A stretch of DNA of 64,000 bases from contig NC_134036.1 of assembly GCF_964204645.1 (NCBI RefSeq), positions 10,395,859 to 10,459,858 on the forward strand. The letters run 5' to 3'. Below the pieces are notes generated by a model that was not told the origin of the DNA, searched no databases, and was given only the letters and a program-made list of their open reading frames with translations. Of this stretch, positions 29,901 to 49,306 are shown in pieces. Position 1 is the stretch's first letter, and each line of letters opens with the position of its first letter. The stretch comes from Tubulanus polymorphus (taxonomy: Eukaryota; Animalia; Nemertea). A program made the translations under genes and the position numbers.

Positions 29901-30572
29901 CACCCAACGCATCAATACCTATAATTCTAAAAGTTCATGTTATAACGTTTAGAATATTCCTCCCTAAGTCAAAACTTTAAATAAAAGACCAGAAGGTAAA
30001 ATTCTCTTCGTTGGACTTTTGGAGGAATCGTTTGAATATCGGACCCCTTGGTCGAGTTTCCATCGATTGACATTGGGAGGAATGTTCCTCCCGAAGTCGA
30101 TACTTTGAATATCAGAACTGAAGGTCAAATTCTCTTCGTTTGACCTTGGGAGGAATATTCCTCCCAAAGTCAATTGTTTGAATACCAGACCCCTTGGTCA
30201 AGTTTCCATCGATTGACTTTGGGAGGAATATTCCTCCCGCAGTCAATTTTCACAATAGCGGTCCTCTTAATTGGTGATGATCAAATGAACGTGCGGCTCA
30301 TATTTCTATTGTGTGCCTATCCGGTGTAACGCGCGACACGCTTACATAATCTTATCTGTAAATGTGAAGACCTCGGGGGCATTATGTTCTCTAAAGCCCG
30401 ACATTATCCCACATTCGGGACTGTGAATGGGTTGATTTTACGGCTGAGTCGACATGTTTCAACAATTTTTAACTGTTCATTTATGAATATTTGAAGACTT
30501 ATGAACTAAAAATTACTTAAATTTTTGATACATTTTGAGAAAGTCACAAAACATTTGAGAGTGCGTTAGAGG
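23991..30572. mobile_element. Large non-coding foldback element with long inverted arms and palindromic subrepeats
   Basis: 23991-24560 is a near-perfect reverse complement of ~30030-30572. Weaker inverted matches continue inward (25030/29650, 25415/29285, 26150/28500). Arrays of the palindrome gactttgggaggaatattcctcccaaagtc. Confidence 0.75.
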
Positions 30573-30957
30573 CAGATGGTCCGCGACAACTAGTGATCCC
30601 CAAAAATATGCGCACCGAAATTCTAGAAGCAGGTCATGATTCAATGACCGGTGGTCACTTGGGACATAAGAGGACCTATGAGACATTAAGAGCTAGGTAT
30701 TATTGGTCGGGTATGTACAAATACGTGGAAAAGTGGATCAAATCTTGTAGAGACTGTGCAACCAAAAATAAGCCGGGAAAGCCCATACGAGCCCCAGTTA
30801 ATCCGATCGCTGTCACTGGACCATGGGACAGGGTCTCAATGGATGTATGTGGTCCATTTCCAACAACTGTTTCAGGGAATAAGTATATTCTAGTTTTTGA
30901 TGATTATCTTACAAAATGGGTCGAAGCATTTGCAAATCAAGAATTAATACCGACAAT
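30573..30957 (+). pseudogene. pol: Gypsy integrase N-terminal half (HHCC zinc domain and first catalytic Asp)
   Basis: GHDSMTGGHLGHKRTY..YYWSGM..CRDC..PWDRVSMDVCGPFPTT.SGNKYILVFDDYLTKWVEAF. Confidence 0.92.
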
Positions 30958-33069
30958 CTCCTCGCGATGTTAATATTCTGGCAGGAGTGTCCTATGGGCA
31001 CTTTTTCCTGAATTTATAAGACGGCTTTGTAAGTATAGTCGTGATAAGATTATTTTGCAATTGTTATTTGATCAGGCTGATCATGTCATTTTCGTTTACG
31101 GATAGTTATACGATATATAATAACCATATATGATATTTTATGCGTATCTAAGTGGTTACTTTAGGTAATATTTATGTTGGATATACGTTTATGCATTAAT
31201 TTATACAATTAATTAAACGAACAATGAAACGAGTAGGGTCATTATAGCGACGAAGTTTTGTTGACTAAATTGATAGATAGATGGTTAAAACAGAAGGCTC
31301 TATTTCTTTTATTTTTCATTGTTAAGAATGTCGATATAATAGACTAGACTGGTAATATGATTATGGAATTTGTATAATATACTGTCGTTGTCTCTAATTG
31401 TTATGTAATAATGTCGTTGTCTTTTGCTTGTAGGGTACCCGTTTCGAGTGGTTTGAGACCGACCAACACGACAGCACTTGGATGCAAGACCGTTTTTTTT
31501 TCCTGTCTGCTGCGATAGACGTTGAGGGGTACTTCCCTGATAGTGACCATATGGAGATTGGGACTTGTTTGGAGGTATCCCGAGACTCTATTGCTGGACG
31601 CATAGAACAGCATGAGCCAACAACTGGTATGGTCGGGACATAAGACACTCGGAGCCACGTCCATTTTTAAAGATGCAAGGCCGTCGATGACAAGAAATCC
31701 GGCCTATACAGTTGCGTTTAGGCGTAGGCCTGGAGATGTATGTATCAGTGTTTTGTTAGTCATGCAGTCAGCCAGTGTTAATGGTGTTGTCCCTCTTGCG
31801 AAAATCGTTATTCTCACGGACTTGTGATAACTCCTTGGGGGCAAAACACCTGGCTGCATGCAAGAAATCGTGAAATTTGCCGACGACATTTGCGTCAAAC
31901 CGATCTAAATGGCGGATGTATGAACTCGATGTTCCAGCGCGCCGTATTCAGCTTCGTTGTACTACAAGCGTTGTGGTATTTTCGACTCGTATGTTGCGAT
32001 ATAAACTGTGGAGAAGTTATAGACTGCTGTATCGTAAATCTGGTTCTACGTTGAAGCCATTGATATTGCGTGTTTTCGCGCTGGATGGTGTATTATTAGG
32101 CTGCGAGGAACTGCGTTGGATAACGTCATTCGTCCGTCCATGGCGTACTGTGTTGTTGTGGTTGCTGTTGCGTCTTCATGCGGTATATTTTCAAACTTCG
32201 TAATTGCGGTGGTGTTAAGTGCTAGACTTTTTACGGTATTAGCGGAGGCAGCGGTCTCAAGATACTTTCATTTTCCGAGCGGGTATCCTGAACTTTAATT
32301 TGTGGTTTTGTTGAACTGTAATCCTGAACTTTTAGTGCGTGTTATTACTATGAACTTTAACGAGTAGTTTTAGAATATGGTCTAGTTAATATCTTTGGGG
32401 AAAAAGACGCGATTTGGAGTTTTTCATCCGTTTGTTGCTGTTTTCTTTTTCAGGGTTTTTCATGAGGTGTCGGCTTGTGTTTCAGAGGTTGTCTAAATTC
32501 AAAATTTCGGGACGAAATTTTAAGCTGAGTGGGGAGTGATGATCCGCAGCTGAATTTTACTTTCAAAAAGATCAAACGATTTATATACGTAGGTTTCTTG
32601 GCATGTCCTGGGAGAACACACGCATTGTTCCTTATGTACAATAATACATTATCCGCCTTAATGGTTGTTTGTCTGAAACATTTATACTTGTATCAGACGA
32701 GCATTCTAAATCACTTTGAAGGTAATCGCGCGCTGTAGTCATGAGAATAATTCGTGGAAATGAGCAATGATGAAATCAACTTATGAAACACTCGCTGACC
32801 CTTAGTCTGATAATTCGATAATAAGGAGTAATATCAAAGAGTAATATTAAAAATTAATATTAAAGAGTTTTATTATTTTAATTAATAAGAGTTTGTGTGT
32901 TTAAATTTGAATGTACTAACAATGATAAAGAATATAAATAAGAAAGATGATATTTCGGCTTACATTGTATATTACTATTTAGACGAAATTAAATACCATT
33001 CATTGTGGGAATTGTAATCATTGGATAAGTTAAAATAAATGAGTTCGAGGGTTGGAAAAATAGTATATA

Positions 33070-34000: not shown

Positions 34001-34002
34001 TA

Positions 34003-34414
34003 CGGAAGCGATAAGGGGCCTCGAGTTGTCGCGTTCCAACTCGTCAAGTCGCCATATTTATGTCGACATATCGCGATATATCGCGTCAAGTCGACATGAA
34101 TATGTCGTCATATCGTGACGTTTTCACGACAAATTTCGCTTTCTCGACCACTTTCCTCGCGACAAGTCGACATATTCACGACAACTTGAAACTCAGTCGT
34201 CATATTACTGGCGTCCTCATCTTACATTTAGACATGTCTTCAAATGACGGCTTGTCCCGTGGAAAATGAGCAAATAAGCGAAATTTGTCGTGAAAACGTC
34301 ACGATATGTAGACATATTCATGTGGACTTGACACGATATATCGCGATATATCGACATAAATATGGCGACTTGTCGAGTTTGAACATGACAACTCGAGGCC
34401 CTTTATCGCTTCCA
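34003..34414. mobile_element. Tc1/mariner-type MITE with ~140 bp TIRs
   Basis: TA-cggaagcgataaggggcctcgagttgtc... / ...gacaactcgaggccctttatcgcttcca-TA. Confidence 0.8.
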
Positions 34415-34504
34415 TACTATATCAGATTAATCGACTTCAAAATAGGCGAAAGCATAAGTCTTTATTACGTTATTAATTGGCCTAATTATTCAAAAGCTAA
34501 TAAT

Positions 34505-36405
34505 GTGGGCGACAAAACCAAAAAAATTAATTGTCGCGGGCGATAAAACCAAAATAATCAATTGACGCGGGCGATAAAACCAAAATAATCAATTGTCGCT
34601 GGCGATAAAACCAAAATATTGAATTGTCGCGGGCGACAAAACCAAAAGAATGAATTGTCGCGGGCGATAACCAAATAATGAATTTTCGCGGGCGACAAAA
34701 CCAAAATATTCAATTGTCGCGGGCTACAAAACCAAACTAATGAATTGTCGCGGGCGATGAAACCAAAATATTGAAGTGTCGCGGGCGATAAAACCAAAAT
34801 AATCAATTGTCGCTGGCGATAAAACCAAAATATTGAATTGTCGCGGGCGACAAAACCAAAAGAATGAATTGTCGCGGGCGATAAAACCAAATAATGAATT
34901 GTCGCGGGTGACAAAACCGAAATATTCAATTGTCGTGGGCAACAAAACCAAACTAATGAATTGTCGCAGGCGATAAAACGAAAATAATAAATTGTCGCAG
35001 GCGATAAAACCAAAAAAATGAATTGTCGCGGATGAAAAAACCAAAATCATGAATTGTCACGGGCGACAAAACCAAAATATTCAATTGTCGCGGGCGACAA
35101 AACCAAACTAATGAATTGTCGCGGGCAATAAAACCAAAATATTGAATTGTCGTAGGCGCCAAATCCAAAAAATGAATTGTCGCGGGCGATAAAACCAAAA
35201 TATTGAAGTGTCGCAGGCGTTAAAACCGCGACAAAAAGAGAAAAAAATTGTCGCGGGTGATAAAACCAAAATAATGAATTGTCGCGGGCGATAAAACCAA
35301 AATATTGAAGTGTCGCAGGCGTTAAAACCGCGACAAAAAGAGAAAAAAATTGTCGCGGGTGATAAAACCAAAATAATGAATTGTCGTGGGCGATAAAACC
35401 AAAATATTGAATTGTCGTGGGCGACAAATCCAAAAAATGAATTGTCGCGGGCGATAAAACCAAAATCTTGAATTGTCGCCATTGTCGCGTGCGACAAAAA
35501 TCCAAATAATGAATTGTCGCGGGCGATAAAACCAAAATAATGAATTGTCGCGGGCGATAAAACCAAAATCTTGAATTGTCGCCATTGTCGCGTGCGACAA
35601 AACCAAAATCTTGAATTGTCGCCATTGTCGTGTGCGACAAAACAAAAATAATGAATATTCGCGGGCGATAAAACCAAAATACTGAATTGTCGCGGGCGAT
35701 AAAACCAAAATAATGAATTGTCGCGGGCGACAAAACCAAAATATTCAATTGTCACGGGCGACAAAACCAAACTAATGAATTGTCGCGGGCGATAAAACCA
35801 AAATCTTGAATTGTCGCCATTGTCGCGTGCGACAAAAATCAAAATAATGAATTGTCGCGGGCGATAAAACCAAAATAATGAATTGTCGCGGGCGATAAAA
35901 CCAAAATATTGAAGTGTCGCAGGCGATAAAACCGCGACAAAAAGAGAAAAAAATTGTCGCGGGCGATAAAACCAAATTAATGAATTGTCGTGGGCGATAA
36001 AACCAAAATATTGAATTGTCGTGGGTGACAAATCCAAAAAATGAATTGTCGCGGGCGATAAAACCAAAATCTTGAATTGTCGCCATTGTCGTGTGCGACA
36101 AAACCAAAATAATGAATTGTTGCGGGCGATAAAACCAAAATAATGAATTGTCGCGGGCGATAAAACCAAAATATTGAATTGTCGTGGGCGACAAATCCAA
36201 AAAATGAATTGTCGCGGGCGATAAAACCAAAATAATGAATTGTCGCGGGCGATAAAACCAAAATATTGTTTTGTCGCGGGTGACAAAACCAAATTAATGA
36301 ATTGTCGCGGGCGATCAAACCAAAATAATGAATTGTCGCGGGCGATAAAACCAAAATAATGAATTGCCGCGGGCAACAAAACCAAAATTATTGTTTTGTC
36401 GCGTT
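34505..36405. repeat. ~31-bp tandem satellite/minisatellite (~1.9 kb)
   Basis: Unit attgtcgcgggcgataaaaccaaaataatga with recurrent variants; no unique spacers. Confidence 0.95.
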
Positions 36406-36622: not shown

Positions 36623-37300
36623 CTAACATCCGGACAGATTGGTCGTAGGCCCATTGAATTCAACAACCCACCTAAATATCGTAAATTTTGTTTTGAAGTT
36701 CAATCCAATGAGTCCGTTAATAAACGCAACAATTGTACTGTGTTTGTTTGAGACAGTTAAGCTCAGTACCGGTAGGCCTAAAGCCGCGTCAAACTCGATA
36801 AACACTTCAAGCAACACAGCGAACGATCCCTTTCCCCCACAGAGAACGCTTACTCCGAATGTCAAGTGTGAGTCCAGCATACGGAAAGGATTATGTGTTA
36901 TATACTTGTATTTAGTGAATACCTTGTGCATTTGACAATGATCGGTATGTACGGTAGGAAATATAGAGTATTGATGGTATTGATATAGAGGTTGAAGCCC
37001 GCGGCCGAATAAAGTAATATATTCTTTTATTTTGATACCTCGTCGACATAAAAGCTTTTCTCCGCTATATCTCTTCGGCGTGTTTAGTTTAGGCCAACGA
37101 TTCCTCGGTACACTAAAGATTTATCTTAGTAAATACTCGGTTAATTCGGTAAAGAAAAATAGGTATTGTTATACTAACTCCTTGAAACCCGCAGCCAAAT
37201 TACTGGTAGTAATAAATTAATTTGTACTCGATTTGATTCTCATGATGAGGAGAAACTCGCAGCTGATCCCCGGAACGACGATGTAGTAACACACGTCGAT
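36623..37300 (-). pseudogene. Degenerate ORF of unknown function (possibly displaced Polinton accessory gene)
   Basis: The frame of ORF 36623-36931 extends upstream to ~37300 through two stops; part is duplicated at ~36490-36575. Confidence 0.3.
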
Positions 37301-37730
37301 TCGTCGATGTTTACGGCTCGACAGTGCTTTTAAAATCTAAAGTAGTAAATTTCCAGTGTATCGGTAATATGATTTGATGAGGAAAATGGGCTATTGTTAA
37401 AATCACTGTTTGAAGACCGCGACTGAATTTGAAGTCTGCGGCAATAAATTAGTTCATTTATACTTGAATTGATAATCGAAGTGACAGTCGGCCTGCGGGT
37501 TGATTTCGGGATGACGACTCGAAAAACATGTCGCCCCATTGAATGGGGCTAAATTTTCGATGTTTACGGCCCGACAGCGCTTTTGTAACGATGATTCGTG
37601 AAAAAACACGCGGGCTATTTGTAGATCTCAGTGAGCTGAACGATATTATATGGATTGTATATGAAACAGCGGTAAGGTAACAAAGCCTATGTTCTTTTGG
37701 TAAAAATAGTGTGGAAGAAAATAATAATAA

Positions 37731-37930
37731 TAAATATAGCTGCAAAGCAGCGATAACGGGTTTTCTGCACAGTCTTAGAATCCAGTTCAACGGTGGATTT
37801 CGACAAAGCATTTGATAAGGCACAACATCAGGCATTACTAACCAGGCTATTAGGAAACATCATTAATGATAGGTCACTCAAATGGCTCAGCAGTTATCTC
37901 TGAACGAAAACTTGTAGCCGAAATCAACGT
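37731..37930 (+). repeat. Short repeat with LINE RT fragment, copy 2; abuts the truncated pPolB
   Basis: Direct repeat of 33838-34000, continuing as SSYLSERK (RT-like). Confidence 0.7.
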
Positions 37931-40548
37931 GTTGAGTTTCATCGGTAGAAAATTGAATGTGTCCAAAAACTATATATCCAAATGTGTGACGGTCATAGTC
38001 ATTATTTTCCCGCCGTTTGGTACAATATCTGGTAATATACCTTGTGACACCAAATATTGAAGAATAAAGTAACCGTCAAAGGATTGAAAAAGGCGCGAAA
38101 ACAATGGCGCCCCTATTCTCTTCCGTAAACAACCACTCGCAGAATTCAGAGTCCGTTTTAAACATGTGTTCATGTTTACCGCAATAATCGCAAACCGAGT
38201 CAGGGGTCCGTTTCGACCATTTACACATTTGACATATTCTATGCGCTATACCCAATACTACAACGTGGTTCGATTCCACAGTCGTTGTTTCGAAATCGAA
38301 TGCGATGAACTTTCTATATTTTAGCTCATCGCCAGCCTTGTGGGCATCCAAATACGGGTTAATTAGTGTATGAGGGTTACCCTGTTCCTCAGAAACCACG
38401 TGATCCTGACTTTTGGCGACCCCGATGTAGCAAAGATGGCCGCTAGGCTTTCGCTCTTTACAAGAACTGCAATATTTCTGCCCGCAGTCGTGAGATTTAG
38501 GATCAAGTTTCTTTCTAGATACAATAGACCCGCATTGAAAACATCTCGTTCTCGAATCGCATACGCTTACCCCGTCTGCTCTTGGTCTGCAGTGTCTGGC
38601 TAAACACGCTTCCGATTTAAAATAGATATTGCATTTTATACACAAATAATTTCCCCGTTGTTCTACGCAATCCCCAAAGCAAAGTCTACATTTATCGGTA
38701 CAGCGATGTCGTTCTGTATTCGTATCCCCCTTTTTACAAATGTAGCAATAGTATGAACGACAGGTAGATGAAGCCATCGATGTAATTACATCGAAATGTC
38801 CATCCGTATATAATAATATAAGCTTTTTGGTATTCACACCGTGGTCGTCCAGCACATTGCGATTGTTTTCGTATAAAATGTGATAAGCGATATCATCACC
38901 AGTTACAACAAGTAAGCAGTAATCGGATAATTGTTTCGCAAACGCATCCAATTCGCGCAATCCACACTTGCCTAGGGGCACACCGGCATTCATGTGTAAG
39001 GTAATTGCCGCACCCTTTTGTAATGACCGGTTGCATTTACGAATAACGTCATAACGAGGGTCATTATCCGCACGCGCTTTCGCCACCACTAACGACCTAG
39101 CGAGACACAAATCATCGTCATTATCGATCGAAACAATACATGGTTTGTTTTGTCTAAACGACTCGAAATTTACCTCAACGCGTTTACGATGCGTACCACC
39201 TAGCGGCATTCGAATGAATGTACAATGGAAAATCCAAAGACAAATCCTCATTCGACTGTAGAACACAGATTATTCTATCGAGTATATATTCTACCGTTAG
39301 TTCGTCCAACGGTACGAATGGAAATTCAATGTTTCCATTGAGTTCTGCGTGCTCGATAGATATCCGGATCATGTCATTCGAACGAGCGTCCAACATTTCA
39401 CTTATAGCCGCTAAAACGTCGGTTAGATAGTTCCAGACGGTGGCTTGTGCATCCCGCGCGTCGAGTTGGTCGTTAATCGGGTCCTCATGTGGTATCACGG
39501 TAACCTTGTACAACTCATTTTTCATGTTGAATTTCTTACTGTGTTGTACGCCGTTCTGTAAAATAATGGAAATATTCTTTTTTATTCATTTTGTTCGTCA
39601 TTATGTTAAACGATTTTGATGTATTCGATTACTTACCCTGACCAATTTAATATTGCCCCGTATTATCTCGTCGGGGTTTTCACAGTGAGGGCGCTTCGAA
39701 CACGATACTTCTTCCTCATCATCAATATCGTCAATAGGACGCTTCGATGTTGGGGGCCGTGGCGCGCATACCTCGCTGTGGTTTCTTAACTCGGCGATTG
39801 ATGGGAACGATTCCGAACATCGCGAGCATGTAAACTCCCGTACGGCTGGTGGCGGTGGCGGTGGTGGCTGTGGTAAGACCGATGTCTTTTTAGGCTTACA
39901 TGTTCTCATATGCCTCACCAAGCTATCTTCACGGGATAGCGTTTTTCCGCATTTGTCGCAAGAATGCTATAAAATAGAAAAAAATACCCGGATTATATTT
40001 AAGATGACTAACGGGTTTTAGTAACGCATAATATCACTACTTACAGGTTTAGCATCCGATATGCCAGGTTGCGCGTGTAGTGATACGTGTTTGGCAACGT
40101 ATCCCTTGCACGTTTTGGCGTGTCGCCTCACGTGGTCTTTGCGTGCAAACACCTTGCCACTTGTGACGCATTGACAATCAGAAGTCCCAAAATGGGAACC
40201 CATGTGTCGCGTCAGCGTTTGCTGGTTATCAAAGTTAAGACCGCATATTTTGCAGTCCCATATTTGCTGAAAATAAAAAATAGGTATTTAATAATACGTT
40301 CAACCACATAGTAATTAAATGAACGGTTTTAATCTACTAACCGGATTGACCGAAGCTACAGACGCCTGTTGCTGCATCGGATGGGGTGCCATACAAATGA
40401 CCGTGTGCTGCGTCAAATCGCGCGCACAAGCAAATGCTTTGCAACAGCTTAAGCATTTAAACCCCTTCTTCCCAGCGTGAAGTTGCTGGTGTTGACCCAA
40501 TGCGATTTCATTGGCAAAAGTCAACGGGCAGTATTGGCATGAATACAT
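37925..40548 (-). pseudogene. polB: Protein-primed DNA polymerase B, 5' half, with three spliced upstream exons encoding six C2H2 fingers
   Basis: Exons 40548-40342, 40266-40045, 39966-39637 and 39555 onward joined by phase-0 GT-AG introns. OTU-like DDDLCLARS...GHFDVI, Cys-rich fingers, ExoI FIAFDFETT, ExoII-like FQSFDGYFIL, FLDTFNFLPMKL. Frameshifts; polymerase domain missing. Confidence 0.9.
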
Positions 40549-40624
40549 TTTCTGTAAGAAAAAAAAGATTGAATACGTGTTATTTTTTTAAAAGAGACTA
40601 ATCTTCAGTGTCTACAAGTCAATT

Positions 40625-40921
40625 ATGGGTCGACTATCAAGTACAATGGACGGACTATTACGAAGGTTATTGTTCACGATTTTGGATTACACGCGATTAC
40701 ACCAAGTGTTACTAAGTCAAAGGCATTTAACAGATATTCAACGTTTAGCCAGAGATTTTGTAGATTGCGACGAACCAGATGGATTATGCATAGTTTTGAA
40801 AGAATTAAACATGACGGAGCGATTCCTTTATACAATTGTTGGCGCTATATTTTGTTTAGACGTGATTGATCTTCAACCGGAATGTAAATATTTCATTCAA
40901 AGAACGTATATCAACGTGTGA
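40625..40921 (+). CDS. Polinton hypothetical protein (98 aa)
   Basis: ATG-initiated ORF inside the element; no recognisable motif. Confidence 0.4.
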   Translation: MGRLSSTMDGLLRRLLFTILDYTRLHQVLLSQRHLTDIQRLARDFVDCDEPDGLCIVLKELNMTERFLYTIVGAIFCLDVIDLQPECKYFIQRTYINV

Positions 40922-41253
40922 AAAAAGTCAAATAGCGTTTATGAAAACATATTCAAACCTCGAATAACTAAAATCGAAAAATATTCAAACCTCAAATAGG
41001 TAAAATCGAAAAAATAGTCAAACCGTAATTTTAACTAATCTTATTTTGTCAAAACCGTAGTATTTTCCTATTAAAAAAGTGCAAACCATATTTTAGAAAA
41101 CTGAAAATTGTAAGAACCTCGTTTAGTGAAAATAAAGAATTTAGTAAACAATAAAATGCTTGTACTGTATTTTTTAAATATTGACACCCCCTTGTTTCTA
41201 TTAAAAGTGTTTTTCATTCGCAACTAAAACACTGAAAACACTAAAACATTAAG

Positions 41254-41880
41254 ATGGCAGAGTATTATGGCCCGAGATACTTATCCCACCCATTAACAAT
41301 GATAGTCGCGGGACCGACGGGTTCCGGTAAAAGTGTGTTTGTCAAAAAAAGTTATAACGGAGAATCTTGTCGAAAAAAATCCCGATAAGATATATTGGTG
41401 TTACGCGGAGGCACAACCCGAAATGTTCAATGAATTGGAAAAGTTTGGAGTGCAGTTTGTAGAGGGTTTTTCTGGAGAACTCTACGACAAAATAGATGGC
41501 AGTAAACGTACATTAATTATAGTCGACGATCTGATGAATGAAGTAGGGAGTAATAACGCGTTAGCTTCTTTGTACACACGAGGATCCCATCATCGCAACA
41601 TCAGCGTTATTACGATTGTACAAAATATTTTCCCGAAAGGCAAAGAGTTTAGAACGATTAGTTTAAACTCACATTATATTGCCGTTTTTAAAAACGCGCG
41701 AGATAGAAATCAAGTTCGCGTTCTCGCTCAACAAGCCGGTTTGAAAAACGAAATAAAAGCGGCCTTTAGAGACGCGACCATGGAACCCCACGGTTATCTT
41801 TTACTGGATTTTAAACCGAAAACTGATGATAGATGGGCTTGAGAACTAGAATTTTTCCTAGCGATAAATACCATATAATA
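41254..41880 (+). pseudogene. Polinton A32-like packaging ATPase (frameshift after Walker A)
   Basis: MIVAGPTGSGK (41254 frame), Walker B LIIVDDLM, GSHHRNISV, RTISLNSHYI, KNARD. Confidence 0.93.
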
Positions 41881-41940
41881 TAAAAAACAAAGAAAATCCA
41901 TTAAAAGTATAATTCATCGGTTAACTATTAATAGAAGAAA

Positions 41941-42324
41941 ATGGCTCCGCGTAAAAACAACTCGTTGCAAAGAGTGAAGAAATATATACATCATCTACAC
42001 GTGTTGGGTAAATGTAATAAAAAACAACGTCAAGCGTTGATAGAATCGGCTCCGTCAGACTTAATCAAGTGTGTATGCGAGATATCCACAAACAGTTTAG
42101 CCGGGAATATAAAACATAGCGACAAAGATAAACGTGTGTTAAAACAACATAAGCGTTACATACGCATGTTGGCCAACAATTCGATAGCCATTAAACATAA
42201 ACGAGGAATAATTTCGCAAAAAGGTGGATTTCTGCCATTCATTTTATTGCCTATTTTGAAACCTATACTGACGAGTGTTTTAACGAACGCAGCAAACCGA
42301 ATAGTAGATAAGGCAACAGCATGA
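41941..42324 (+). CDS. Conserved Polinton basic protein with QKGGFL motif and hydrophobic tail (probable adenain-processed virion protein)
   Basis: LIKCVCEISTNSLAGNI...ISQKGGFLPFILLPIL; position directly after the ATPase is typical. Confidence 0.75.
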   Translation: MAPRKNNSLQRVKKYIHHLHVLGKCNKKQRQALIESAPSDLIKCVCEISTNSLAGNIKHSDKDKRVLKQHKRYIRMLANNSIAIKHKRGIISQKGGFLPFILLPILKPILTSVLTNAANRIVDKATA

Positions 42325-42995
42325 AGGACGTTGAAAAGTTAATCATTTTACCCGATTCTATGTTACCCTCGATACAAGCTTTTATCGCGAGTCAGGAGCG
42401 TCGACAAGAAAAAGAAACACCCGCTACCTACAACCCTCTAACGGATAACAAAATACCCGACGATCTCAAATACTTAAAGTATAATCAGTTATTGCAGCAA
42501 GAAATACATAAATCGTCTACAGAAAAGGACATTAACCAAACGACACAAGATATTAAAGAAATCTCGGGCAAATATACTACGCAGAAAATTATTGATCGGT
42601 TACCGTTAAGATTTAGGAAAAAATGTAAATCCCTATTAGCATTTTTTGAAAATAATCCAGGAATTTTGAAATGGAATGATAAAGGCGAACTGATTTACAA
42701 GGACAATCTAATTCGTGGAAGCAACAACGACGATATTTTACACATGTCGTTAGTACAAACTAAAATGGATCAAGAATATATCGGCCTAGATAAATATATA
42801 TCTGCATTTAACGAGTTGAACGTACCATTGAGTCTTATTTCGAATAAAACGTTAAAGAGAAGTATTGAACTTACCGTAGATTTAGATACGTCGTTGTCTC
42901 CAAAGAGAAAGAAACCAAAGTATGATCAGAGCGGATCCGGACTGTGTGGAGTGCGGGATGGCAATGTGAATTTCGCAAACTGGTTATCCTTTTAA
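42321..42995 (+). CDS. Conserved Polinton protein of unknown function
   Basis: WNDKGELIYKDNLIRGSN motif, ATGA overlap with the previous ORF, NLS-like PKRKKPK. Confidence 0.7.
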   Translation: MKDVEKLIILPDSMLPSIQAFIASQERRQEKETPATYNPLTDNKIPDDLKYLKYNQLLQQEIHKSSTEKDINQTTQDIKEISGKYTTQKIIDRLPLRFRKKCKSLLAFFENNPGILKWNDKGELIYKDNLIRGSNNDDILHMSLVQTKMDQEYIGLDKYISAFNELNVPLSLISNKTLKRSIELTVDLDTSLSPKRKKPKYDQSGSGLCGVRDGNVNFANWLSF

Positions 42996-43185
42996 CGACT
43001 AGATAACCTAATCACGACTGTCAAAAATCTTTGACCAATGACCGGGCTTCATTCGTGGCGTATTGATATGATATATGCGGGCTTCATTATTCGTGTTTGG
43101 GCATGTCAACGGTCAGCGGGTTTTGCAATTATATCATTAGTGGAATGGATATAGCAGTTTCATTTGTGGTCGAGCAGGCACGTTA

Positions 43186-43658
43186 ATGATGATCGCGATT
43201 GTAAACGTTGTATCTACGGCGCATTTGAATTGCCGTTTAAACCTAACCGATATTGCGAGAAAATTATGTAATGTCGTTTATGACCCCCGAAAGTTTAGCG
43301 GATTGATGTGGAAACATAGAAGTATACAAGGTAGCTAGCTGTCTATTGTTCGTAAATGGAAATTCGCCAGTTGATACAAAGGATGGGATACACGGGGAAC
43401 TTGAATAACTTCAAAATACAAACTATGACTGGAGTCGCAAAAATCGGTCGACGCGTAGACCTAGTGGAACTTTCCAAAACAGTTGACGGCGATTATAATC
43501 CTGAAATATTTCCCGGTTTTGTGTACAAATGTGAAAACGGAATAAAATTTATAGTACATAACGGTGGTACTTTAATATTGTCGGGTGCCAAAAAACTCAA
43601 CGATTTACAGGACGCCTACGAAGAAATTCTATTTTATGCCATTCTTTGTTCCAAATAA
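43186..43658 (+). pseudogene. TATA-binding-protein (TBP)-like protein carried by the Polinton
   Basis: Repeat 1 IVNVVSTAHLNCRLNLTDIARKLCNVVYDPRKFSGL; repeat 2 FKIQTMTG..VDLVEL..YNPEIFPGFVYK..FIVHNGGTLILSGAK. A 4-bp duplication (agct, ~43333) and a small deletion disrupt repeat 1. Confidence 0.85.
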
Positions 43659-43707
43659 AAAAGTCATTAAAAGCATATTGATTTAAGTGTAAATAAAATA
43701 TATAAAA

Positions 43708-43923
43708 ATGAATTGGCGAAAGTCGTTTTGTTGTTGTTTGAAGCAGGAGGAGCCGAATTTCGAGTGCCGTTTCGATCGAGTTAATTGCGTATTAAGCACG
43801 TGTTGTGGTAGCACAACTGTGATCGATGAAAGCCGAACAGAAAAGATTCCTGGCGAATCAATATTATGGCGTCGACAAAGAAGGAAGTTTTTCAAACGCA
43901 AATACATTACTACGGATTTGTAA
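43708..43923 (+). CDS. Small Cys-clustered Polinton ORF overlapping the integrase start
   Basis: MNWRKSFCCCLK...STCCGS; good ATG context. Confidence 0.35.
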   Translation: MNWRKSFCCCLKQEEPNFECRFDRVNCVLSTCCGSTTVIDESRTEKIPGESILWRRQRRKFFKRKYITTDL

Positions 43924-44904
43924 AAAAGAAAAAAGAAATATCTCTTTACGGGATATACGAGACTGGTTGACCGACCAAGAAGTTTACACTTTACACGCCA
44001 AAGTACGAAAAGATTTCCAAGAAACAAAACTATAGCCTATCGAGTAAACGAACAATTTCAGGTCGACTTGTGCGACGTTTCGAATATTTCGAAACACAAT
44101 GACGGTTACAAATTTCTATTGACGGCTATTGATGTATTGTCTAGATACGCGTTCGCTATACCGTTAGAGAATAAATTTAATTCTACCGTTGTGGATGGAT
44201 TTAAAAAGGTTTTCAAAATTAGAAAACCTAACGTAATCCAATCGGAATCTGGCACAGAGTTTATCGGATCAAAAACGCAGACGTATCTGAGAAATGAAGG
44301 CGTACGTTTTTTCCAAAGTAAAAACGAAGTAAAATGCGCTTTAATCGAAAGATGGATACGTACTTTAAAATCGAAAATGTATAAGATATTTTCGCATAGA
44401 AATTCATACAGGTACATCGATCTACTTAAAGATATAGTAGCGTCGTACAACAAATCGTTTCATCGTAGTATAAAAATGACTCCAAATGATGTTAACGAGT
44501 TAAACGCGTACGAAGTTTTCAAGAATCTATACGGCACAAGTAGTAAAAAACGCGTACAATTTAAGTTTCGCGTTGGCGACACTGTTCGAGTAAGCGAACT
44601 CAAAGGTCAATTCCAAAAAGGCTATTTACCCGGTTGGAGTACTGAGTTGTTTGTCGTTACGAAAATAATTATGCGTGAGCCACCTATATACAAGATTAAA
44701 GATTTACAAGACGTAACAATAGATGGCGTGTTTTATGGTTACGAGTTGATAAAATTCAATAAAAAGGATGAAACGTATAAGATCGAGTCGATAATTAAAA
44801 CTCGAGGTAAAGGCGCTCGAAAACAATACTCGGTAAAGTGGTATAACTATCCCGATAAATTCAATTCTTGGGTGAACGCTCGAGATATCAAGACATTACC
44901 ATGA
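43826..44904 (+). pseudogene. Polinton rve (c-)integrase with C-terminal chromodomain, frameshift near 44030
   Basis: WLTDQEVYTLH, QVDLCD, IDVLSRYA, SESGTEF, ERWIRTLK, YNKSFHRSIKMTP, FRVGDTVR, KGYLPGWSTELF; chromo YKIESII..YSVKWYNYPDKFNSWV. Confidence 0.95.
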
Positions 44905-45706
44905 GTCAGGATTTTTACGTGTATCTCAAAAGCGATGCTAGCGTAGACATTTATCCCGATAATACGCAACATAGTTTTAAAGTTCGATTACGAACACCGA
45001 TTTCACTTCAAGGCAAATGAACTTTATGGCAGATTTCAATAACGTGAACAATGGTAGATTTCAATGTACGTCGTCTGAGCAAGGAACTCATTATCTCAAT
45101 ATACCCGAAGGTCGTTATTTGACAATTACCCAATTAATTGTTGCTATACAAACAGAGTTAAACAAATGGTAGGATAATAAGATAGTTCTTGCATTCAATG
45201 AACTAAGTCATAAAGTTTGTATCCGATTTTATGACAACTGCACAATAACTTTTACGAGTGATATTGCGTGGATTTTGGGTTTTAAAGAAAATATACCGAT
45301 TAACGAAGATATAACAGATCATCGTCAAGGCTCTAAAATACATGGTCCTATACTGTCAGATTCATCCGATAGTAAAACAGTTTACAAACACATCGAGGTT
45401 ACTGCAACCCGCAGTTCGGATATAAACGTCGATTATCATAATTTAATGATATATACAGATGTTATCGAACCTCAGCTGGTCGGACATGAAATCGCAAAAC
45501 TCTTGCGCATGATTGATTTGAATCCGAGAAATTTTGGTAAAATTGTTGGTCGAGAATTTACCAAGTTACAATACTTCCCACTACAGAGACGGAATTTCCA
45601 AACTATAGAAGTCTTTATAAGAACTGAATCCGGGAGAATCCCCGTGTTCAGAAAAGGAAAAGTTAACTTAGCTTTACATTTTAAAAAGAAGAATTTATTG
45701 CTATGA
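44901..45706 (+). pseudogene. Minor capsid (penton, PX) protein, disrupted
   Basis: MSQDFYVYLKSDASVDIYPDNTQHSFKVRL at the start; IYTDVIEPQLVG..LLRMI..YFPLQRRNFQTIEV..LHF at the end; internal stops and frameshifts. Confidence 0.88.
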
Positions 45707-46113
45707 GGGCTCTCTGCGAAATCGATCGGGATGCTTGTAAATATTACATGAACCAATGCGGTTCGGGTATTGATGTATATACGGCGTCTCCCGTACAAGG
45801 CGGTGCAGGCTTTGCATCAGTCTTGGGAGGGCTGGCTCGACCAGCTATTCCACTACTAAAAAATATGGCTAAGCAAGCGGTTCATCATTTACTGAGAACG
45901 GGTCTACACGTAGCTAGCGATGTGGTAGGCGGAAAGAATATCGCGACAGCCCTCAAAGATCGTGGCATCGAAACAATGGGTCGCATTATCAGACGAAGCT
46001 TAAAAAGACCATCTACCTCAACCCCAAAATCAATAAAAGGTCGTAAACGACGTAGGCGTATAACAACCGGAAAACGTGTACGAAAAACCAAAGCAACCGC
46101 TGAAGCGTACTAA
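45703..46113 (+). CDS. Polinton core/virion protein (QxGxG motifs, amphipathic helix, Arg-rich tail)
   Basis: YYMNQCGSG..VQGGAGFASVLGGLARPAIPLLK..RKRRRR; lies between penton and MCP. Confidence 0.8.
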   Translation: MRALCEIDRDACKYYMNQCGSGIDVYTASPVQGGAGFASVLGGLARPAIPLLKNMAKQAVHHLLRTGLHVASDVVGGKNIATALKDRGIETMGRIIRRSLKRPSTSTPKSIKGRKRRRRITTGKRVRKTKATAEAY

Positions 46114-46115
46114 TT

Positions 46116-47416
46116 ATGTCGTTATTAGTACATAAGGATTCGCCATTTTGCGTCAAGTCTGAACTCGATCTGTTTACAGTTCCCGGAACACAGATAAATT
46201 TCAAGCGTATGAGCGTATGAGCCTACTACATCGATTAACGATATGGGACCGATTGTATTCAGAGTACCGAAAACTGAACAATATTTAGATTTAAACGTCA
46301 CGTATTTAAAACTACAGTTTAAAATAGTTAACGCCGATGGAACTAATGTGGGTCCTGAAAAGTCTGTCTCAATGATCAATGGCGCCTATAGTCTATTTAG
46401 CGATGTACAAATTATGCTTAATGACCGAGTAGTTACCCACGACGGTGGATTATACCCGTTCAAGTGTGAACCTGAAAATATGGTTAATTACAACTCGGAA
46501 ACTAAAAACAACAGCTGGCTACAATGCGATCTTTATGCCGAAGACGAAGCCGGAAAAAAGTCAAATATCGATCCTACTTTACCAAACGCGAATTCTGGTT
46601 TGGTCAGAAGGAATAACTACACTAAAGGCAGTAAAATGGTTTGCGCTTATTCTCGCTTGTAAAGCGATGTAATGAGAATGAATAAGATTTTCTTCAACAA
46701 TACAGATTTACAAATAAAACTAACTCGATCAAAGGAAAGTTTTGCTCTAGTTTCCCCCGCCGAAAACCGATTTTCGTATAAAGATTGAAAGCGCTCAACT
46801 ATACATTCGTAAACTAGAACTGGATAGTTCTGTTTTAGTAGCGCATGCTAAAGCAATGGAAAAGAATACAGCAAAATATTATTTTTCGAGAACTGAATTA
46901 TTATCGTTGTATATTCCAAGAGGTCATAGAACAATTATCAAGGACTCCGTTTTCGTCGGCGAGATACCAAAGGCTATTGTTTTAGCTTTAGTGGACGACG
47001 ACGCGTTGAGCGGTAATTACAAAAAGAATCCGTTCAATTTCAAGGATTATTCATTGAATTATATAGGGGTGACCATTGATAATGTCCATGCACAAAACTC
47101 GCCGTTAATTATAGACTCTCGTGGCGACGGTTGCGAAGTGTATCACGGTTTATATTTAGCCCGGGGCTTATTGTATAAAAACGAAGGAATTGGGATAAAA
47201 CGTGAGGATTTCAAAAATGGTAATTTTATTTGTGGATTCAATATATCGCCAGAGTATGGGGATCAAACGCATCTGTCACTAATTAAAAAGGGGTCAATAA
47301 AAATCGAAATGCGATTTGATGAAGCTTTACCGCATAACGTGAATTTGATTGTTTACGCCGTTTTCGACGAATTACTACAAGTCACTAAAGAACGTCATAT
47401 AGAGATCGATTATTAA
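46116..47416 (+). pseudogene. Major capsid protein (double jelly roll, PY), frameshifted
   Basis: MSLLVHKDSPFCVKSELDLFTVPGTQ, GPIVF, YLDL, SLFSDVQI, GEIPKAIV, GNYKKNPFNFKDY; split over several ORFs. Confidence 0.93.
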
Positions 47417-47421
47417 CGACC

Positions 47422-47886
47422 ATGTTGTACACAAACCAAATTTTAGAGTTTATGAAAAAAGACGAATGTCTGAAAGCGTTTTTCGTTGGTGTGTTCCCAT
47501 GTGACGGACTACCGAATATAACGCGTTATCCAGCTGGTTTTATAGTAAACACTGATAATCACGATGAGCCCGGCGAACACTGGTTAGCTGTATATATAAA
47601 CGAATACGGATTTGGTTATTTTTTTGATTCCTTCGGACAATTACCCCGAACTTATGATATAATGTTAGAAAAATACTTGGATGAAAATTGTATAGACTGG
47701 AAATATAATAGTAAGATGTATCAAAATGTATTATCCGATGTATGTGGTTATTACGCTATATTTGTACTATTACACCTATGTCACGGTAACGATGTACGCG
47801 ATATTACGAAACTATTGTCAAACAAAACTACTGATAATGATTATTTTGTAAAAAAATTCATCGTGAAATATTTTAAGCTTCTATAA
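47422..47886 (+). CDS. Adenain-like cysteine maturation protease (intact)
   Basis: NTDNHDEPGEHW, YFFDSFG, YQNVLSDVCGYY (His-Asp-Gln-Cys set). Confidence 0.93.
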   Translation: MLYTNQILEFMKKDECLKAFFVGVFPCDGLPNITRYPAGFIVNTDNHDEPGEHWLAVYINEYGFGYFFDSFGQLPRTYDIMLEKYLDENCIDWKYNSKMYQNVLSDVCGYYAIFVLLHLCHGNDVRDITKLLSNKTTDNDYFVKKFIVKYFKLL

Positions 47887-48062
47887 TAAAACCACAATGT
47901 AAATGAATTTAGTCGTTTTTTAGATTCTACAAAATCACCGAGGAAAAAAGTTTTGTTAAAACTTGGAGAAAAAACTGAAGCAAAAAGCGCGGCAAGGCAA
48001 ATTAACACTGGCTCTTTCTTGAAAATTGAAGTGGTCCTGAAAAGGACCTTTTGAGGAAGGGG

Positions 48063-48456
48063 TCAGTGTCCGAGTTCGTCGTCGTCGTATTCTTCGGCAG
48101 TGTTGTCATCAACATCATCGACGTTGCTGCTGCTGTTGTTGCCGTCTCTGGTGACGGCGGCGCCGGTTTCGTCGCATTCTCTGTTCTTCTTTGCGTATAT
48201 GCCCCGCAAACATACGTGCCCAGCGCACAACATTTCTGCAGAGTGGGCACAAAAATACATCATTAGCGTCTTCACGCCCCAGTTCAAGGTTTCTTCGTAT
48301 TATGGTGGAGACGCAGCTTCCACACGTCAAGTTTCTGTATTGACACTGGCTACATAGTAGCCAGCACCGCTGACCGGACGTGAAGCATATGCCGCACTCG
48401 AGCACTGCATCGGCATCATCCGGTATCTCAAACCAACGTGCTCCAATCACAGACAT
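48063..48456 (-). CDS. RING-finger-like protein (possible E3 ligase), acidic tail probably via frameshift
   Basis: CGIC-x10-CSQC-x6-CGSC-x21-CPLCR; overlapping frame ends in DVDDNTAEEYDDDE. Confidence 0.6.
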
Positions 48457-49306
48457 GTTGGAAATGATTTGTCCTAAAACTACCCCCTTATTTATGGGTC
48501 TAAGTCAGACGACTAATTAGTTGATTAATTCTTATAGTCTAACAGTTTACTCAAAGTATTTGAGGATTCTATCACATATTATTAACGGTGTTTTTGATAC
48601 TCTGGTCTATTATCACCCAGCATATAAGACCATCTGTTCGGTTTTATCTAAACAACTTAATTACCTCAGCGCTATGAGCACTAAAATGTTCGAATTATTG
48701 CTAGTGTAATTGGTTTGAAACCTCACACCTATTTTCCCATCGCGGACGTGTCTCCGATCTAAATCACTTAATTGCCTTCGTCTTCCACATATAATTAACG
48801 GTGTTTGGATACTATCGACCCATATGCTTCTGGTAATTGGTTTTGCTCACACCTATTTTCCCCAATCGTGGTCGTGTATTGATCTAAATCAATTAATTGC
48901 CTTCTTTGTCGGTATATCGTATCATGGGTCTGGATAGCAACGAAATGCTAGATTAACGTATTGTTAAATCAGAATGATTCAAAAATGAAATCTTTTATTC
49001 AATTAATGTTTTATTTAGTCCTAAAAACATAAATATTTTTATAAATATTGTAGATAAACATAGGTCATATACCTATACACGAAAAAACCATAAATTTCAT
49101 AAAAGATAGAAACTCACTACTTTAGTTAATCCTCTTTGGTTAGAGCGGATCTTAATGAAGTCCTGGATTAGTCATTTCGGATACTTATTTCTATCTAAGA
49201 GTTTAACGCAAACTAACGTATATAAATTGATGTATTTTTTTTACACATTTTGTTGTTCGGTTATGATATAAATATTATCTAATTAATATCTTTTAAACTA
49301 CTTTAA

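What the first reader, a model, noticed from the sequence alone, without database searches (positions are those of the whole stretch)
39184..40548. Six C2H2 zinc fingers spliced through three phase-0 introns onto the pPolB N-terminus
Seen: exons of 207, 222 and 330 nt, each carrying two C2H2/C2HC fingers, join in frame to the exon from 39555 leading into the terminal-protein/OTU-like region of pPolB. Inference: a sequence-specific DNA-binding module, perhaps released by the OTU-like protease or by alternative splicing, that recognises the element's termini or promoters. Modular phase-0 exons suggest exon shuffling inside a virus-like element.
Basis: partly seen in the sequence, partly recalled or inferred. 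Interest (0 to 1): 0.7.

Follow-up and report, generated by a model that had tools for sequence, protein, structure and literature searches.

The report
Zinc-fingered start of Maverick polymerase gene
A decayed virus-like Maverick element in a ribbon-worm-like genome begins its self-priming DNA polymerase gene with three small exons coding six zinc fingers, which likely steer the polymerase to the element's own DNA; the same fusion, without introns, is common in clam and mussel elements but I found no paper that describes it.

Summary
On the minus strand, exons 40548-40342, 40266-40045 and 39966-39637 (207/222/330 nt) have canonical GT..AG borders. They code six C2H2/C2HC fingers, one of which lacks a ligand in this copy, and they join in phase 0 to the exon starting at 39555.

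That exon is the terminal-protein (TP) domain of a Maverick/Polinton protein-primed polymerase, followed by a vOTU protease domain. The fusion is real at family level:
- The conceptually spliced protein aligns in single colinear stretches, across two exon joints, with finger-TP-vOTU-pPolB proteins of bivalves that are uninterrupted ORFs.
- 26 of 81 informative TP-domain representatives carry fingers upstream.
- One contig of run X4 lacks intron 1 exactly.
- Diverged sibling contigs keep the introns.

The window copy itself is dead: two frame breaks, and the polymerase is cut off at about 37907.

The fingers as a DNA-end or origin-recognition module is an inference and untested. Exon shuffling is not supported. 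This is a new variant of a known kind, of moderate interest.

The parts
40342..40548 (-). Exon 1 of the pPolB gene. The ATG is at 40548. Finger 1 (C2H2) is at 40477-40539 and finger 2 (C2HC) at 40393-40455, with 7 residues between them.
   Evidence: Relatives also start with Met followed by the first finger within residues 3-6.
40267..40341 (-). Intron 1: 75 nt, GT..AG, phase 0, G+C 0.24, with in-frame stops.
   Evidence: It is exactly absent from one X4 contig (joint 40266|40342, no letters between). It is retained in X1 and X3 contigs.
40045..40266 (-). Exon 2. Finger 3 (C2H2) is at 40192-40254. Finger 4 (C2HC type, one ligand missing in this copy) is at 40108-40170.
   Evidence: Residues 45-72 of P0001 match this exon at 96% identity.
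39967..40044 (-). Intron 2: 78 nt, GT..AG, phase 0, G+C 0.28.
   Evidence: Sibling contigs of X2 and X3 run from exon 3 into it (records 12 and 19).
39637..39966 (-). Exon 3. Finger 5 (C2HC) is at 39898-39960, followed by a Pro-rich spacer, finger 6 (C2HC) at 39766-39828, and a basic/acidic linker that runs into the TP domain.
   Evidence: Colinear alignments cross both of its borders.
39556..39636 (-). Intron 3: 81 nt, GT..AG, phase 0, G+C 0.23. If it is retained, the frame stops 12 codons in.
   Evidence: It is retained in a diverged X3 contig, and siblings differ by single-base indels inside it (tables 4 and 8).
39232..39555 (-). Exon 4: the N-terminal (TP, D1) domain of pPolB, in frame with exons 1-3. 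In this copy the frame runs on to a stop at 39184-39186.
   Evidence: tblastn of P0012 and P0002; alignment A3; TP profile search; TP model with a mavirus pPolB hit.
39230..39232 (-). First frame break of this copy, between the TP and vOTU parts.
   Evidence: The frame changes between HSPs. Sibling contigs in all four runs differ here by an indel whose length is not a multiple of three (table 4).
38097..39230 (-). vOTU protease domain, an invariant Cys/His-rich block, and the start of the exonuclease domain.
   Evidence: catalytic Cys and His invariant in 30 of 30 sequences; model and OTU fold hits.
37907..38096 (-). Second frame break (about 38089-38097) and the last 61 homologous codons. pPolB homology ends at about 37907, so the whole polymerase (PF03175) half is missing.
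   Evidence: Depth is about 100-fold higher from 37000 to about 38000, which marks a high-copy repeat next to the break (table 2).
40625..40921 (+). Divergent neighbour ORF of 99 codons from its ATG, with no family hit. The two ATGs are only about 76 bp apart, so the promoter region is likely shared.
41245..41842 (+). A32/FtsK-type packaging ATPase with no finger in this element. The arrangement is syntenic with bivalve-type loci, where the ATPase starts with a C2H2 finger.

Best explanation
The stretch is the 5' part of the protein-primed DNA polymerase (pPolB) gene of a decayed Maverick/Polinton copy: three exons coding six C2H2/C2HC zinc fingers that are predicted to be spliced in frame onto the terminal-protein exon.

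The full protein of intact relatives reads fingers, basic/acidic linker, terminal-protein (TP) domain, vOTU protease, Cys/His-rich block, exonuclease, polymerase.

Inferred mechanism: the fingers likely form a built-in DNA-recognition module. It would hold the TP-polymerase on the element's own DNA, most plausibly at the replication origin in the terminal repeats. After protein-primed initiation the vOTU domain would cut the N-terminal part off, a role proposed but not shown in PMC11161782. That would leave finger-TP covalently bound on the 5' end. Retention of intron 3 would give a finger-only protein (untested).

The copy in the window cannot work: it has two frame breaks and has lost the polymerase half.

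Shown: exon-intron anatomy, finger motifs, homology and colinearity with uninterrupted finger-pPolB ORFs, presence in siblings, and the decay of this copy.
Inferred: splicing in vivo (one supporting contig), DNA binding, the target, and the cleavage.
For: Anatomy:
- Canonical splice sites, phase 0, AT-rich introns with stops, and exon G+C twice that of the introns.
- Pfam finger hits in all three exons.

Fusion:
- The spliced translation aligns with P0012 in one stretch from finger 3 to the end of the TP domain, across the exon 3/4 joint (E 9e-12).
- It aligns in single stretches across the exon 2/3 and 3/4 joints with P0027 (E 9e-16), P0089 and others.
- 30 of the 51 hits to P0012 residues 1-235 are 963-1426-aa proteins with PF03175. 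All 30 have at least one N-terminal finger and 25 have three. They include Mya arenaria and Ruditapes philippinarum gene models.
- 5 of 9 examined metagenome loci hold uninterrupted 1385-1413-codon ORFs of this architecture.
- Among the top 150 of 2706 TP-profile hits, 81 have at least 60 residues before the TP stretch, and 26 of those 81 carry 1-4 finger patterns there.

Constraint: in 18 bivalve-type sequences 11 of 12 zinc ligands are invariant. Mean column identity is 0.72 in the fingers, 0.52 in the linker and 0.67 in the TP domain.

Splicing and siblings:
- X4 record 29 joins 40266 to 40342 exactly.
- That joint is absent from X2 and X3, which come from the same sample, and from X1.
- Diverged sibling contigs retain introns 1 and 3 and part of intron 2.
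- Single-base indels lie inside intron 3, while the one indel inside exon 3 is 3 nt.

Domains:
- vOTU Cys and His are invariant in 30 of 30 sequences.
- All listed Foldseek PDB hits of the model are OTU domains (best 4bop, E 1.4e-3, prob 0.99).
- The TP model hits mavirus pPolB (E 5.8e-3) and a 'C2H2-type domain-containing protein' of Drosophila-associated adintovirus 2 (E 1.2e-2).

Context: rve+chromo integrase, adenain/Ulp1-like protease and A32-like ATPase lie beside the gene.

DNA-contact residues: the helices of fingers 3-5 carry Arg, Asp and His at the usual base-contact positions. The sequence comes; the recognition code is recalled knowledge.
Against: - No run is on record as RNA, and the kind of X4 is unknown. 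The exact joint could therefore be an intron-less DNA sibling. One X4 contig also runs on past exon 3 into letters that resemble intron 3 (table 7, compared by eye).
- The only close annotated protein (P0001, Tubulanus polymorphus) joins part of exon 2 directly to the vOTU region and skips exons 3-4.
- No longer protein in the database holds exon 3.
- The exon 1 finger scores are below Pfam's cut-offs, and finger 4 lacks a ligand.
- The tree leaves the window's lineage unresolved on a long branch, so common descent with the bivalve fingers is allowed but not shown.
- 0 of 21 more distant pPolB loci have fingers, so fingers are not needed for pPolB function in general.
- DNA binding, the target site and the cleavage were not tested. 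No terminal repeats could be found for this copy.
Confidence: 0.6

Rival explanations
1. The fingers are part of the polymerase polypeptide but do not read the element's ends. They would bind protein, ubiquitin or RNA, or tether the polymerase to host chromatin or the nucleus. For example, they could work with the vOTU deubiquitinase, or target integration sites or promoters.
For: - Four of the six fingers end in Cys (C2HC).
- Finger 6 gives a sub-threshold hit to the ubiquitin-binding zinc finger family (zf_UBZ, E 3e-4, 20.8 bits against a cut-off of 25.6).
- The fingers come in three pairs separated by long spacers, not one classical array.
- The gene sits on a very short divergent promoter region.
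- 0 of 21 distant pPolB loci need fingers.
Against: - The bivalve-type fingers are classical C2H2 with conserved helix residues of the DNA-contact kind.
- In 5 of 7 bivalve-type loci with enough upstream DNA, the packaging ATPase, another enzyme that acts on the genome's DNA, also starts with a similar finger. A DNA target explains this more easily.
- The UBZ hit is below cut-off.
Confidence: 0.22
2. The finger exons are a separate gene: a regulatory or 'Oncoid'-like accessory gene upstream of PolB, as described for adintoviruses. It would end in what is here called intron 3, and pPolB would start at the Met 11 codons into exon 4.
For: - Retaining intron 3 gives a stop after 12 codons, and the intron holds an AATAAA (output).
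- An ATG lies 11 codons into exon 4.
- Adintovirus accessory genes with paired CXXC motifs typically lie upstream of PolB (PMC8502044, passages read).
- There is no RNA proof of the exon 3/4 joint.
Against: - Exon 3 itself holds the linker that is homologous to the N-terminal part of relatives' polymerases, and alignments run across the joint.
- In relatives the fingers and polymerase are one uninterrupted ORF.
- All relatives extend far upstream of the position of that internal Met.
- No LxCxE motif is present in the translation printed.
- AATAAA is expected by chance in an 81-nt stretch that is 77% A+T.
Confidence: 0.08
3. One reading: the two-finger exons were assembled by exon shuffling or by recent capture of host zinc-finger exons inside the element.
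For: All three exons are symmetric (phase 0-0) and each holds two fingers. The nemertean array has six fingers against three in bivalve-type relatives.
Against: - There is no DNA similarity between the exons (z 0.3, 0.7, -0.6).
- Fingers 3-5 align colinearly with the three fingers of the intron-less relatives.
- The tree with all finger-bearing polymerases held together is 5.1 log-likelihood units better than the free quick tree, and p-AU is 0.71.
- The introns lie in inter-pair spacers, as expected also for later intron gain.
Confidence: 0.1

Closest known systems
Polinton/Maverick pPolB with N-terminal TP (D1) and vOTU (D2) domains (PMC11161782, PNAS 2024; abstract and passages read)
   Same: The order TP domain, vOTU with catalytic Cys and His, exonuclease, polymerase is the same. 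So is the proposed self-cleavage that frees the TP.
   Different: That paper does not mention zinc fingers ('zinc' occurs 0 times in its main text). Here an array of fingers precedes the TP domain, and in the window it is split by three introns.
Bivalve finger-pPolB proteins in public databases, e.g. Mya arenaria 'ZN358-like protein / DNA-directed DNA polymerase' and Ruditapes philippinarum LOC132743952
   Same: Fingers, then a basic/acidic linker, TP, vOTU and pPolB, with the protein starting directly with the first finger. The neighbour cluster with the packaging ATPase is divergent in the same way.
   Different: They have three fingers, all C2H2, in one uninterrupted ORF of about 1370-1400 codons. 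The window has six fingers, mostly C2HC, in three exons. The bivalve-type ATPase also carries a finger, and the window's does not.
Alpha-class adintovirus PolB (OTU + pfam03175) and upstream 'Oncoid' genes (PMC8502044; passages read); Drosophila-associated adintovirus 2 'C2H2-type domain-containing protein' A0A7D4VFN9
   Same: Animal Maverick-like viruses with OTU-PolB. Cysteine-rich accessory coding sequence lies upstream of PolB. One adintovirus protein that is annotated with a C2H2 domain resembles the TP model in fold (E 1.2e-2).
   Different: Oncoids are described as separate ORFs with paired CXXC and LxCxE motifs. Here the fingers are classical C2H2/C2HC, lack LxCxE, and are fused to the polymerase. 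The paper's main text does not contain the word 'finger'.
Adenovirus origin recognition, where host factors NFI and Oct-1 recruit pTP-Pol (recalled knowledge, not from a call)
   Same: It works like this in the proposed mechanism: sequence-specific DNA-binding domains place a TP-polymerase complex at the origin in the terminal repeat.
   Different: In adenovirus the DNA-binding proteins are host factors that act in trans. Here the DNA-binding module would be part of the TP-polymerase polypeptide itself. None of this was tested.

Membership tests
Classical C2H2 zinc finger (Pfam PF00096 and relatives) | Ligand spacing C-x2-4-C-x12-H-x3-5-H | tested here: met
   Fingers 1 and 3 fit as C2H2. Fingers 2, 5 and 6 fit with Cys as the fourth ligand (C2HC variant). 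Finger 4 lacks one ligand in this copy.
Classical C2H2 zinc finger (Pfam PF00096 and relatives) | Profile score at or above Pfam's gathering cut-off | tested here: met
   Exon 2: PF00096 28.8 against 25.2. Exon 3: PF00096 38.8 against 25.2, PF13912 30.8 against 25, PF13894 30.5 against 27. Exon 1 alone is below cut-off (PF13894 26.2 against 27; PF00096 20.3 against 25.2).
Classical C2H2 zinc finger (Pfam PF00096 and relatives) | Zinc-dependent fold and sequence-specific nucleic-acid binding | not testable with these tools
   This needs protein work (EMSA, PBM, bacterial one-hybrid).
Polinton/Maverick protein-primed PolB (TP-vOTU-Exo-Pol) | N-terminal TP (D1) domain | tested here: inconclusive
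   Exon 4 aligns with the TP region of relatives. The profile finds 2706 representatives. The AF2 model of a relative's domain (pLDDT 78) hits mavirus pPolB only weakly (E 5.8e-3, prob 0.94). The priming residue is unknown.
Polinton/Maverick protein-primed PolB (TP-vOTU-Exo-Pol) | vOTU domain with catalytic Cys and His | tested here: met
   Cys55 and His158 of ORF 38079-39269 are invariant in 30 of 30 sequences. The model has pLDDT 75, and all listed Foldseek PDB hits are OTU domains, though with E from 1.4e-3 upward.
Polinton/Maverick protein-primed PolB (TP-vOTU-Exo-Pol) | Family-B polymerase domain PF03175 | tested here: not met
   It is absent from the window copy: homology ends at about 37907, near residue 675 of the 1387 in P0012, and Pfam finds nothing in the remaining ORFs. 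All 23 relatives carry PF03175, so the copy is a truncated member by descent.
Maverick/Polinton element | Hallmark gene set (pPolB, rve integrase, adenain/Ulp1 protease, FtsK/A32 ATPase, capsid genes, terminal inverted repeats) | tested here: inconclusive
   Found: integrase (rve 32.0 against 32.6, chromo 30.4 against 25.1), protease (PF02902 21.1 against 20.7) and ATPase (tblastn E 5e-22). Capsid genes were not identified by Pfam. No flanking inverted repeats were found, and the pPolB-side end is lost.
Spliceosomal introns | GT..AG borders, pyrimidine tract, non-coding content | tested here: met
   Sibling contigs differ by single-base indels inside intron 3.
Spliceosomal introns | Removal from RNA | tested here: inconclusive
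   One contig of run X4 lacks intron 1 exactly, but no run is on record as RNA. No joint was seen for introns 2 and 3.

The most novel reading that the evidence does not exclude
Mavericks of spiralian animals carry their own end-recognition code. Zinc fingers fused to the terminal protein, and in bivalve elements also to the packaging ATPase, read the element's termini. Replication initiation and genome packaging would then not depend on host DNA-binding factors. The finger-TP would stay on the 5' ends after vOTU cleavage. The nemertean lineage doubled the array and holds spliceosomal introns in it, which allows a finger-only regulator through retention of intron 3.
Probability: 0.2. Interest if true: 0.65.

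Novelty: new variant of a known kind. Interest (0 to 1): 0.48.

Why it matters
How protein-primed polymerases of Mavericks/Polintons and adintoviruses find their origins is unknown. The published domain map of their pPolB (TP, vOTU, Exo, Pol) has no DNA-recognition part.

A conserved finger array in front of the TP domain is present in 26 of 81 informative TP representatives. It is under constraint in bivalve elements. It offers a direct, testable candidate for origin or end recognition: the fingers can be expressed alone and their sites mapped on the terminal repeats.

The window adds a six-finger, intron-split version. This shows that the module has been remodelled, and that the host's spliceosome is used, or was once used, inside a virus-like element's replication gene.

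My six literature searches found no paper that describes the fusion. The proteins do sit in public databases under generic names. The supplements of the two key papers were not read and may list such architectures.

Tried and rejected
- Own genome: none is held, so intact siblings could not be fetched.
- RNA evidence: no RNA holder is listed among the 4 runs of one study.
- Exon 3 searched against longer proteins: 38 candidates, none significant.
- P0012 against viral contigs: no match.
- Terminal repeats: the inverted-repeat scan of 30000-64000 gave 11 pairs, none flanking the element. Finger specificity could therefore not be compared with terminal motifs, and no specificity prediction was run.
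- Exon duplication: no DNA similarity between the exons. The intron-intron similarity (z 2.4-4.1) is explained by shared splice signals and composition.
- Tree: the quick tree leaves the window lineage unresolved on a long branch.
- Oncoid idea: no LxCxE motif in the printed translation.
- A finger on the window's ATPase or on other element genes: none in 37000-52000 apart from the pPolB gene.
- VIA-align second look at the OTU fold: the machine was busy three times, and I gave up.
- Earlier findings by place and by sequence: nothing.
- Depth and gaps in the contig runs were not used as evidence of expression.
Full report
**What is there**

On the minus strand, 40548-39184 holds four coding segments. 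Exons 40548-40342 (207 nt), 40266-40045 (222 nt) and 39966-39637 (330 nt) are each a multiple of three. Introns of 75, 78 and 81 nt separate them. The donors read GTTAGT, GTAAGT and GTAAGT, and the acceptors are T-rich tracts ending in AG. Each intron has in-frame stops. Intron G+C is 0.23-0.28 against 0.49-0.51 in the exons.

Pfam finds C2H2-type fingers in all three exons. Exons 2 and 3 score above the curated cut-off, and exon 1 just below it. Five fingers fit C-x2-C-x12-H-x3-[H/C]; fingers 1 and 3 end in His, and fingers 2, 5 and 6 end in Cys. The sixth, finger 4, lacks one ligand in this copy. The fingers form three pairs, with 7 residues between the members of a pair. The spacers between pairs are longer, and introns 1 and 2 fall in them.

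The ATG at 40548 is the first in its ORF. The protein starts with the first finger at residue 4, as in relatives.

**What the fourth exon is**

The segment from 39555 is homologous to the region upstream of the OTU-like domain in protein-primed B polymerases of Maverick/Polinton elements. PMC11161782 (abstract and passages read) identifies this region as the terminal-protein (TP, D1) domain. It is followed by a vOTU cysteine protease (D2), which that paper proposes cuts the TP off.

I tested both domains.
- **vOTU:** in an alignment of 30 sequences the catalytic Cys and His of window ORF 38079-39269 are invariant. An AlphaFold model (pLDDT 75) gives only OTU domains among the listed Foldseek PDB hits. 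The best is OTUD1 at E 1.4e-3, probability 0.99, and none is below 1e-3.
- **TP:** a model of the domain of a relative (pLDDT 78) weakly hits the mavirus polymerase (E 5.8e-3). It also hits a protein of Drosophila-associated adintovirus 2 that UniProt labels 'C2H2-type domain-containing' (E 1.2e-2).

Beside the gene lie an rve+chromo integrase, an adenain/Ulp1-like protease and an A32-type packaging ATPase. The element is of the Maverick/adintovirus kind.

**The copy is dead**

tblastn with P0012, P0002 and P0001 shows the following.
- The frame changes at about 39230-39232, between the TP and vOTU parts.
- It changes again at about 38089-38097.
- Homology stops at about 37907, roughly half-way along the polymerase.

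Next to that point lies a repeat with about 100-fold higher depth in the sequencing runs. The closest protein is a Tubulanus polymorphus gene model (92% identity), so the host is a nemertean or something close to one. At both frame breaks, sibling contigs in public runs differ from the window by indels whose length is not a multiple of three. The breaks are therefore private to this copy or to a subset of copies.

**Are the fingers part of the polymerase?**

Four lines of evidence say yes.
1. Exon 3 holds fingers 5 and 6 and also the basic/acidic linker that relatives have in front of the TP domain. BLASTP of the conceptually spliced exons 1-4 gives one colinear alignment with P0012, from finger 3 to the end of the TP domain across the exon 3/4 joint (E 9e-12). 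It also gives single stretches across the exon 2/3 and 3/4 joints with P0027 (E 9e-16), P0089 and others.
2. P0012 is a single 1387-residue protein with three N-terminal fingers. A search with its first 235 residues found 51 proteins. Thirty of them are pPolBs (PF03175) of 963-1426 residues. All 30 have at least one N-terminal finger and 25 have three. They include gene models of Mya arenaria (one named 'ZN358-like protein') and Ruditapes philippinarum. The other 21 hits are ordinary zinc-finger proteins.
3. Of 9 metagenome loci of this clade that reach the N-terminus, 5 hold uninterrupted ORFs of 1385-1413 codons and 4 are broken.
4. A TP-domain profile found 2706 representatives at E ≤ 1e-3. 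Among the best 150, 81 have at least 60 residues before the TP stretch, and 26 of those 81 carry one to four finger patterns there. The profile held 5 finger-clade rows out of 12, which favours that clade.

The fingers are not universal: 0 of 21 more distant pPolB loci show a finger pattern within 1.5 kb upstream. Only 1 of the 23 relatives had finger domains on record.

**Constraint**

In 18 bivalve-type sequences that are 53-66% identical to P0012, 11 of the 12 zinc ligands are invariant. The finger segment is at least as conserved as the TP domain (mean column identity 0.72 against 0.67) and more conserved than the linker (0.52).

**Splicing**

No run is on record as RNA, and the four holders, all from one study, are of unknown kind.

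Evidence that fits splicing:
- One 299-nt contig of X4, about 87% identical to the window, joins 40266 to 40342 with no letters between. That is intron 1 removed exactly (table 5 and record 29).
- The joint is not seen in X2 or X3, which come from the same sample, nor in X1, which holds a contig identical to the window across intron 1.
- Diverged sibling contigs retain intron 1 (X3 record 22), intron 3 (X3 record 18) and part of intron 2 (X2 record 12, X3 record 19). The introns therefore belong to the element family and are not decay of this copy.
- Among the 12 indels listed for 39100-40700, the two inside intron 3 are single bases, and the one inside exon 3 is 3 nt (table 4).

Evidence against:
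- An X4 contig runs past exon 3 into letters resembling intron 3.
- No joint was seen for introns 2 and 3.
- The NCBI model P0001 joins part of exon 2 straight to the vOTU region.

I rate the gene structure at about 0.85.

**Origin of the module**

The exons show no DNA similarity to each other, which argues against recent exon duplication or shuffling. In a quick tree of the vOTU-Exo region (53 rows, 473 columns), the window and P0001 sit on a long, unresolved branch. The best tree with all 33 finger-bearing rows held together against 19 finger-less rows is 5.1 log-likelihood units better than the free tree, and it is not rejected (p-AU 0.71). P0011 was left out of the test because it lacks its N-terminus. 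One origin of the fusion is thus allowed but not shown. Either intron gain with doubling of the array in the nemertean lineage, or intron loss in the bivalve lineage, fits.

**How it most likely works (inferred)**

The fingers likely form a cis-acting DNA-recognition module for the TP-polymerase. Three observations support this.
- The helices of fingers 3-5 carry Arg, Asp and His at the usual base-contact positions. The sequence comes; the recognition code is recalled knowledge.
- The module sits directly in front of the priming domain.
- In 5 of 7 bivalve-type loci with at least 500 nt of upstream DNA, the divergently transcribed packaging ATPase also begins with a similar single finger. Two enzymes that must find the genome's DNA carry the same kind of reader. 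The window's ATPase has none.

The most economical target is the origin in the terminal repeats, as host factors provide for adenovirus (recalled). After initiation the vOTU would leave finger-TP on the 5' end.

The main rival is a non-DNA or chromatin-tethering role. It is hinted at by the C2HC fingers and by a sub-threshold ubiquitin-binding-finger hit.

None of this was tested, and the termini of this copy are lost.

**Novelty**

Six full-text searches found no paper on a finger-pPolB fusion. PMC11161782 does not contain the word 'zinc', and PMC8502044 does not contain the word 'finger'; the latter describes separate cysteine-rich 'Oncoid' ORFs upstream of PolB. I did not read the supplements of either paper.

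The proteins exist in databases under generic names. I therefore rate this a new variant of a known kind: a six-finger, intron-split form of an under-described but widespread architecture.

Noticed in passing
window 43141-43338 and 43356-43658 (+): Two ORFs inside the Maverick-like element hit the TATA-binding-protein fold family (PF00352, E 6.6e-10 and 1e-11). They lie in different frames, so the gene is broken or oddly built in this copy. A TBP-like gene in a Maverick is unusual.
   Followed up: partly
window 49495-49950 (-): An ORF with a PC4 (transcriptional coactivator p15) domain, PF02229, E 3.5e-8, near the right part of the element. Whether it belongs to the element is open.
   Followed up: no
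L013:1496-3043 (-); also L002, L004, L005, L010 upstream of pPolB: In bivalve-type elements the packaging ATPase (Pox_A32, E 1e-6), transcribed divergently from pPolB, starts with a single C2H2 finger that resembles the polymerase's fingers. This is seen in 5 of 7 loci with at least 500 nt of upstream DNA.
   Followed up: partly
window 38430-38747 (-), residues 175-280 of ORF 38079-39269: A block of about 18 invariant Cys/His residues lies between the vOTU and exonuclease domains, conserved in all 30 aligned pPolBs. It is a second, internal zinc-binding module of unknown role.
   Followed up: no
window 34507-36403: A satellite of 59 copies of a 31-bp unit (79% matches). An inverted repeat of 173 nt lies just before it (34001-34416).
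   Followed up: no
window 37000-37930: A high-copy repeat abutting the truncated polymerase. Its summed contig depth is about 100-fold that of the Maverick part in run X1.
   Followed up: no
window 52140-52762 and 58503-58937; 54185-54381 and 60904-61121: Two sets of long, imperfect inverted repeats about 6-7 kb apart. They may be the ends of other DNA transposons.
   Followed up: no
window 4105-4668 (-) and 30539-30970 (+): Retroelement remnants: a retroviral-type aspartyl protease (PF13650, 25.4 bits) and an integrase H2C2 zinc-binding domain (PF17921, E 1.2e-22).
   Followed up: no
window 38067-39032: Contigs of X1 and X4 join 38066 to 39033, skipping 966 nt with non-intron ends. This looks like a deletion derivative of the polymerase gene among the sibling copies.
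   Followed up: no
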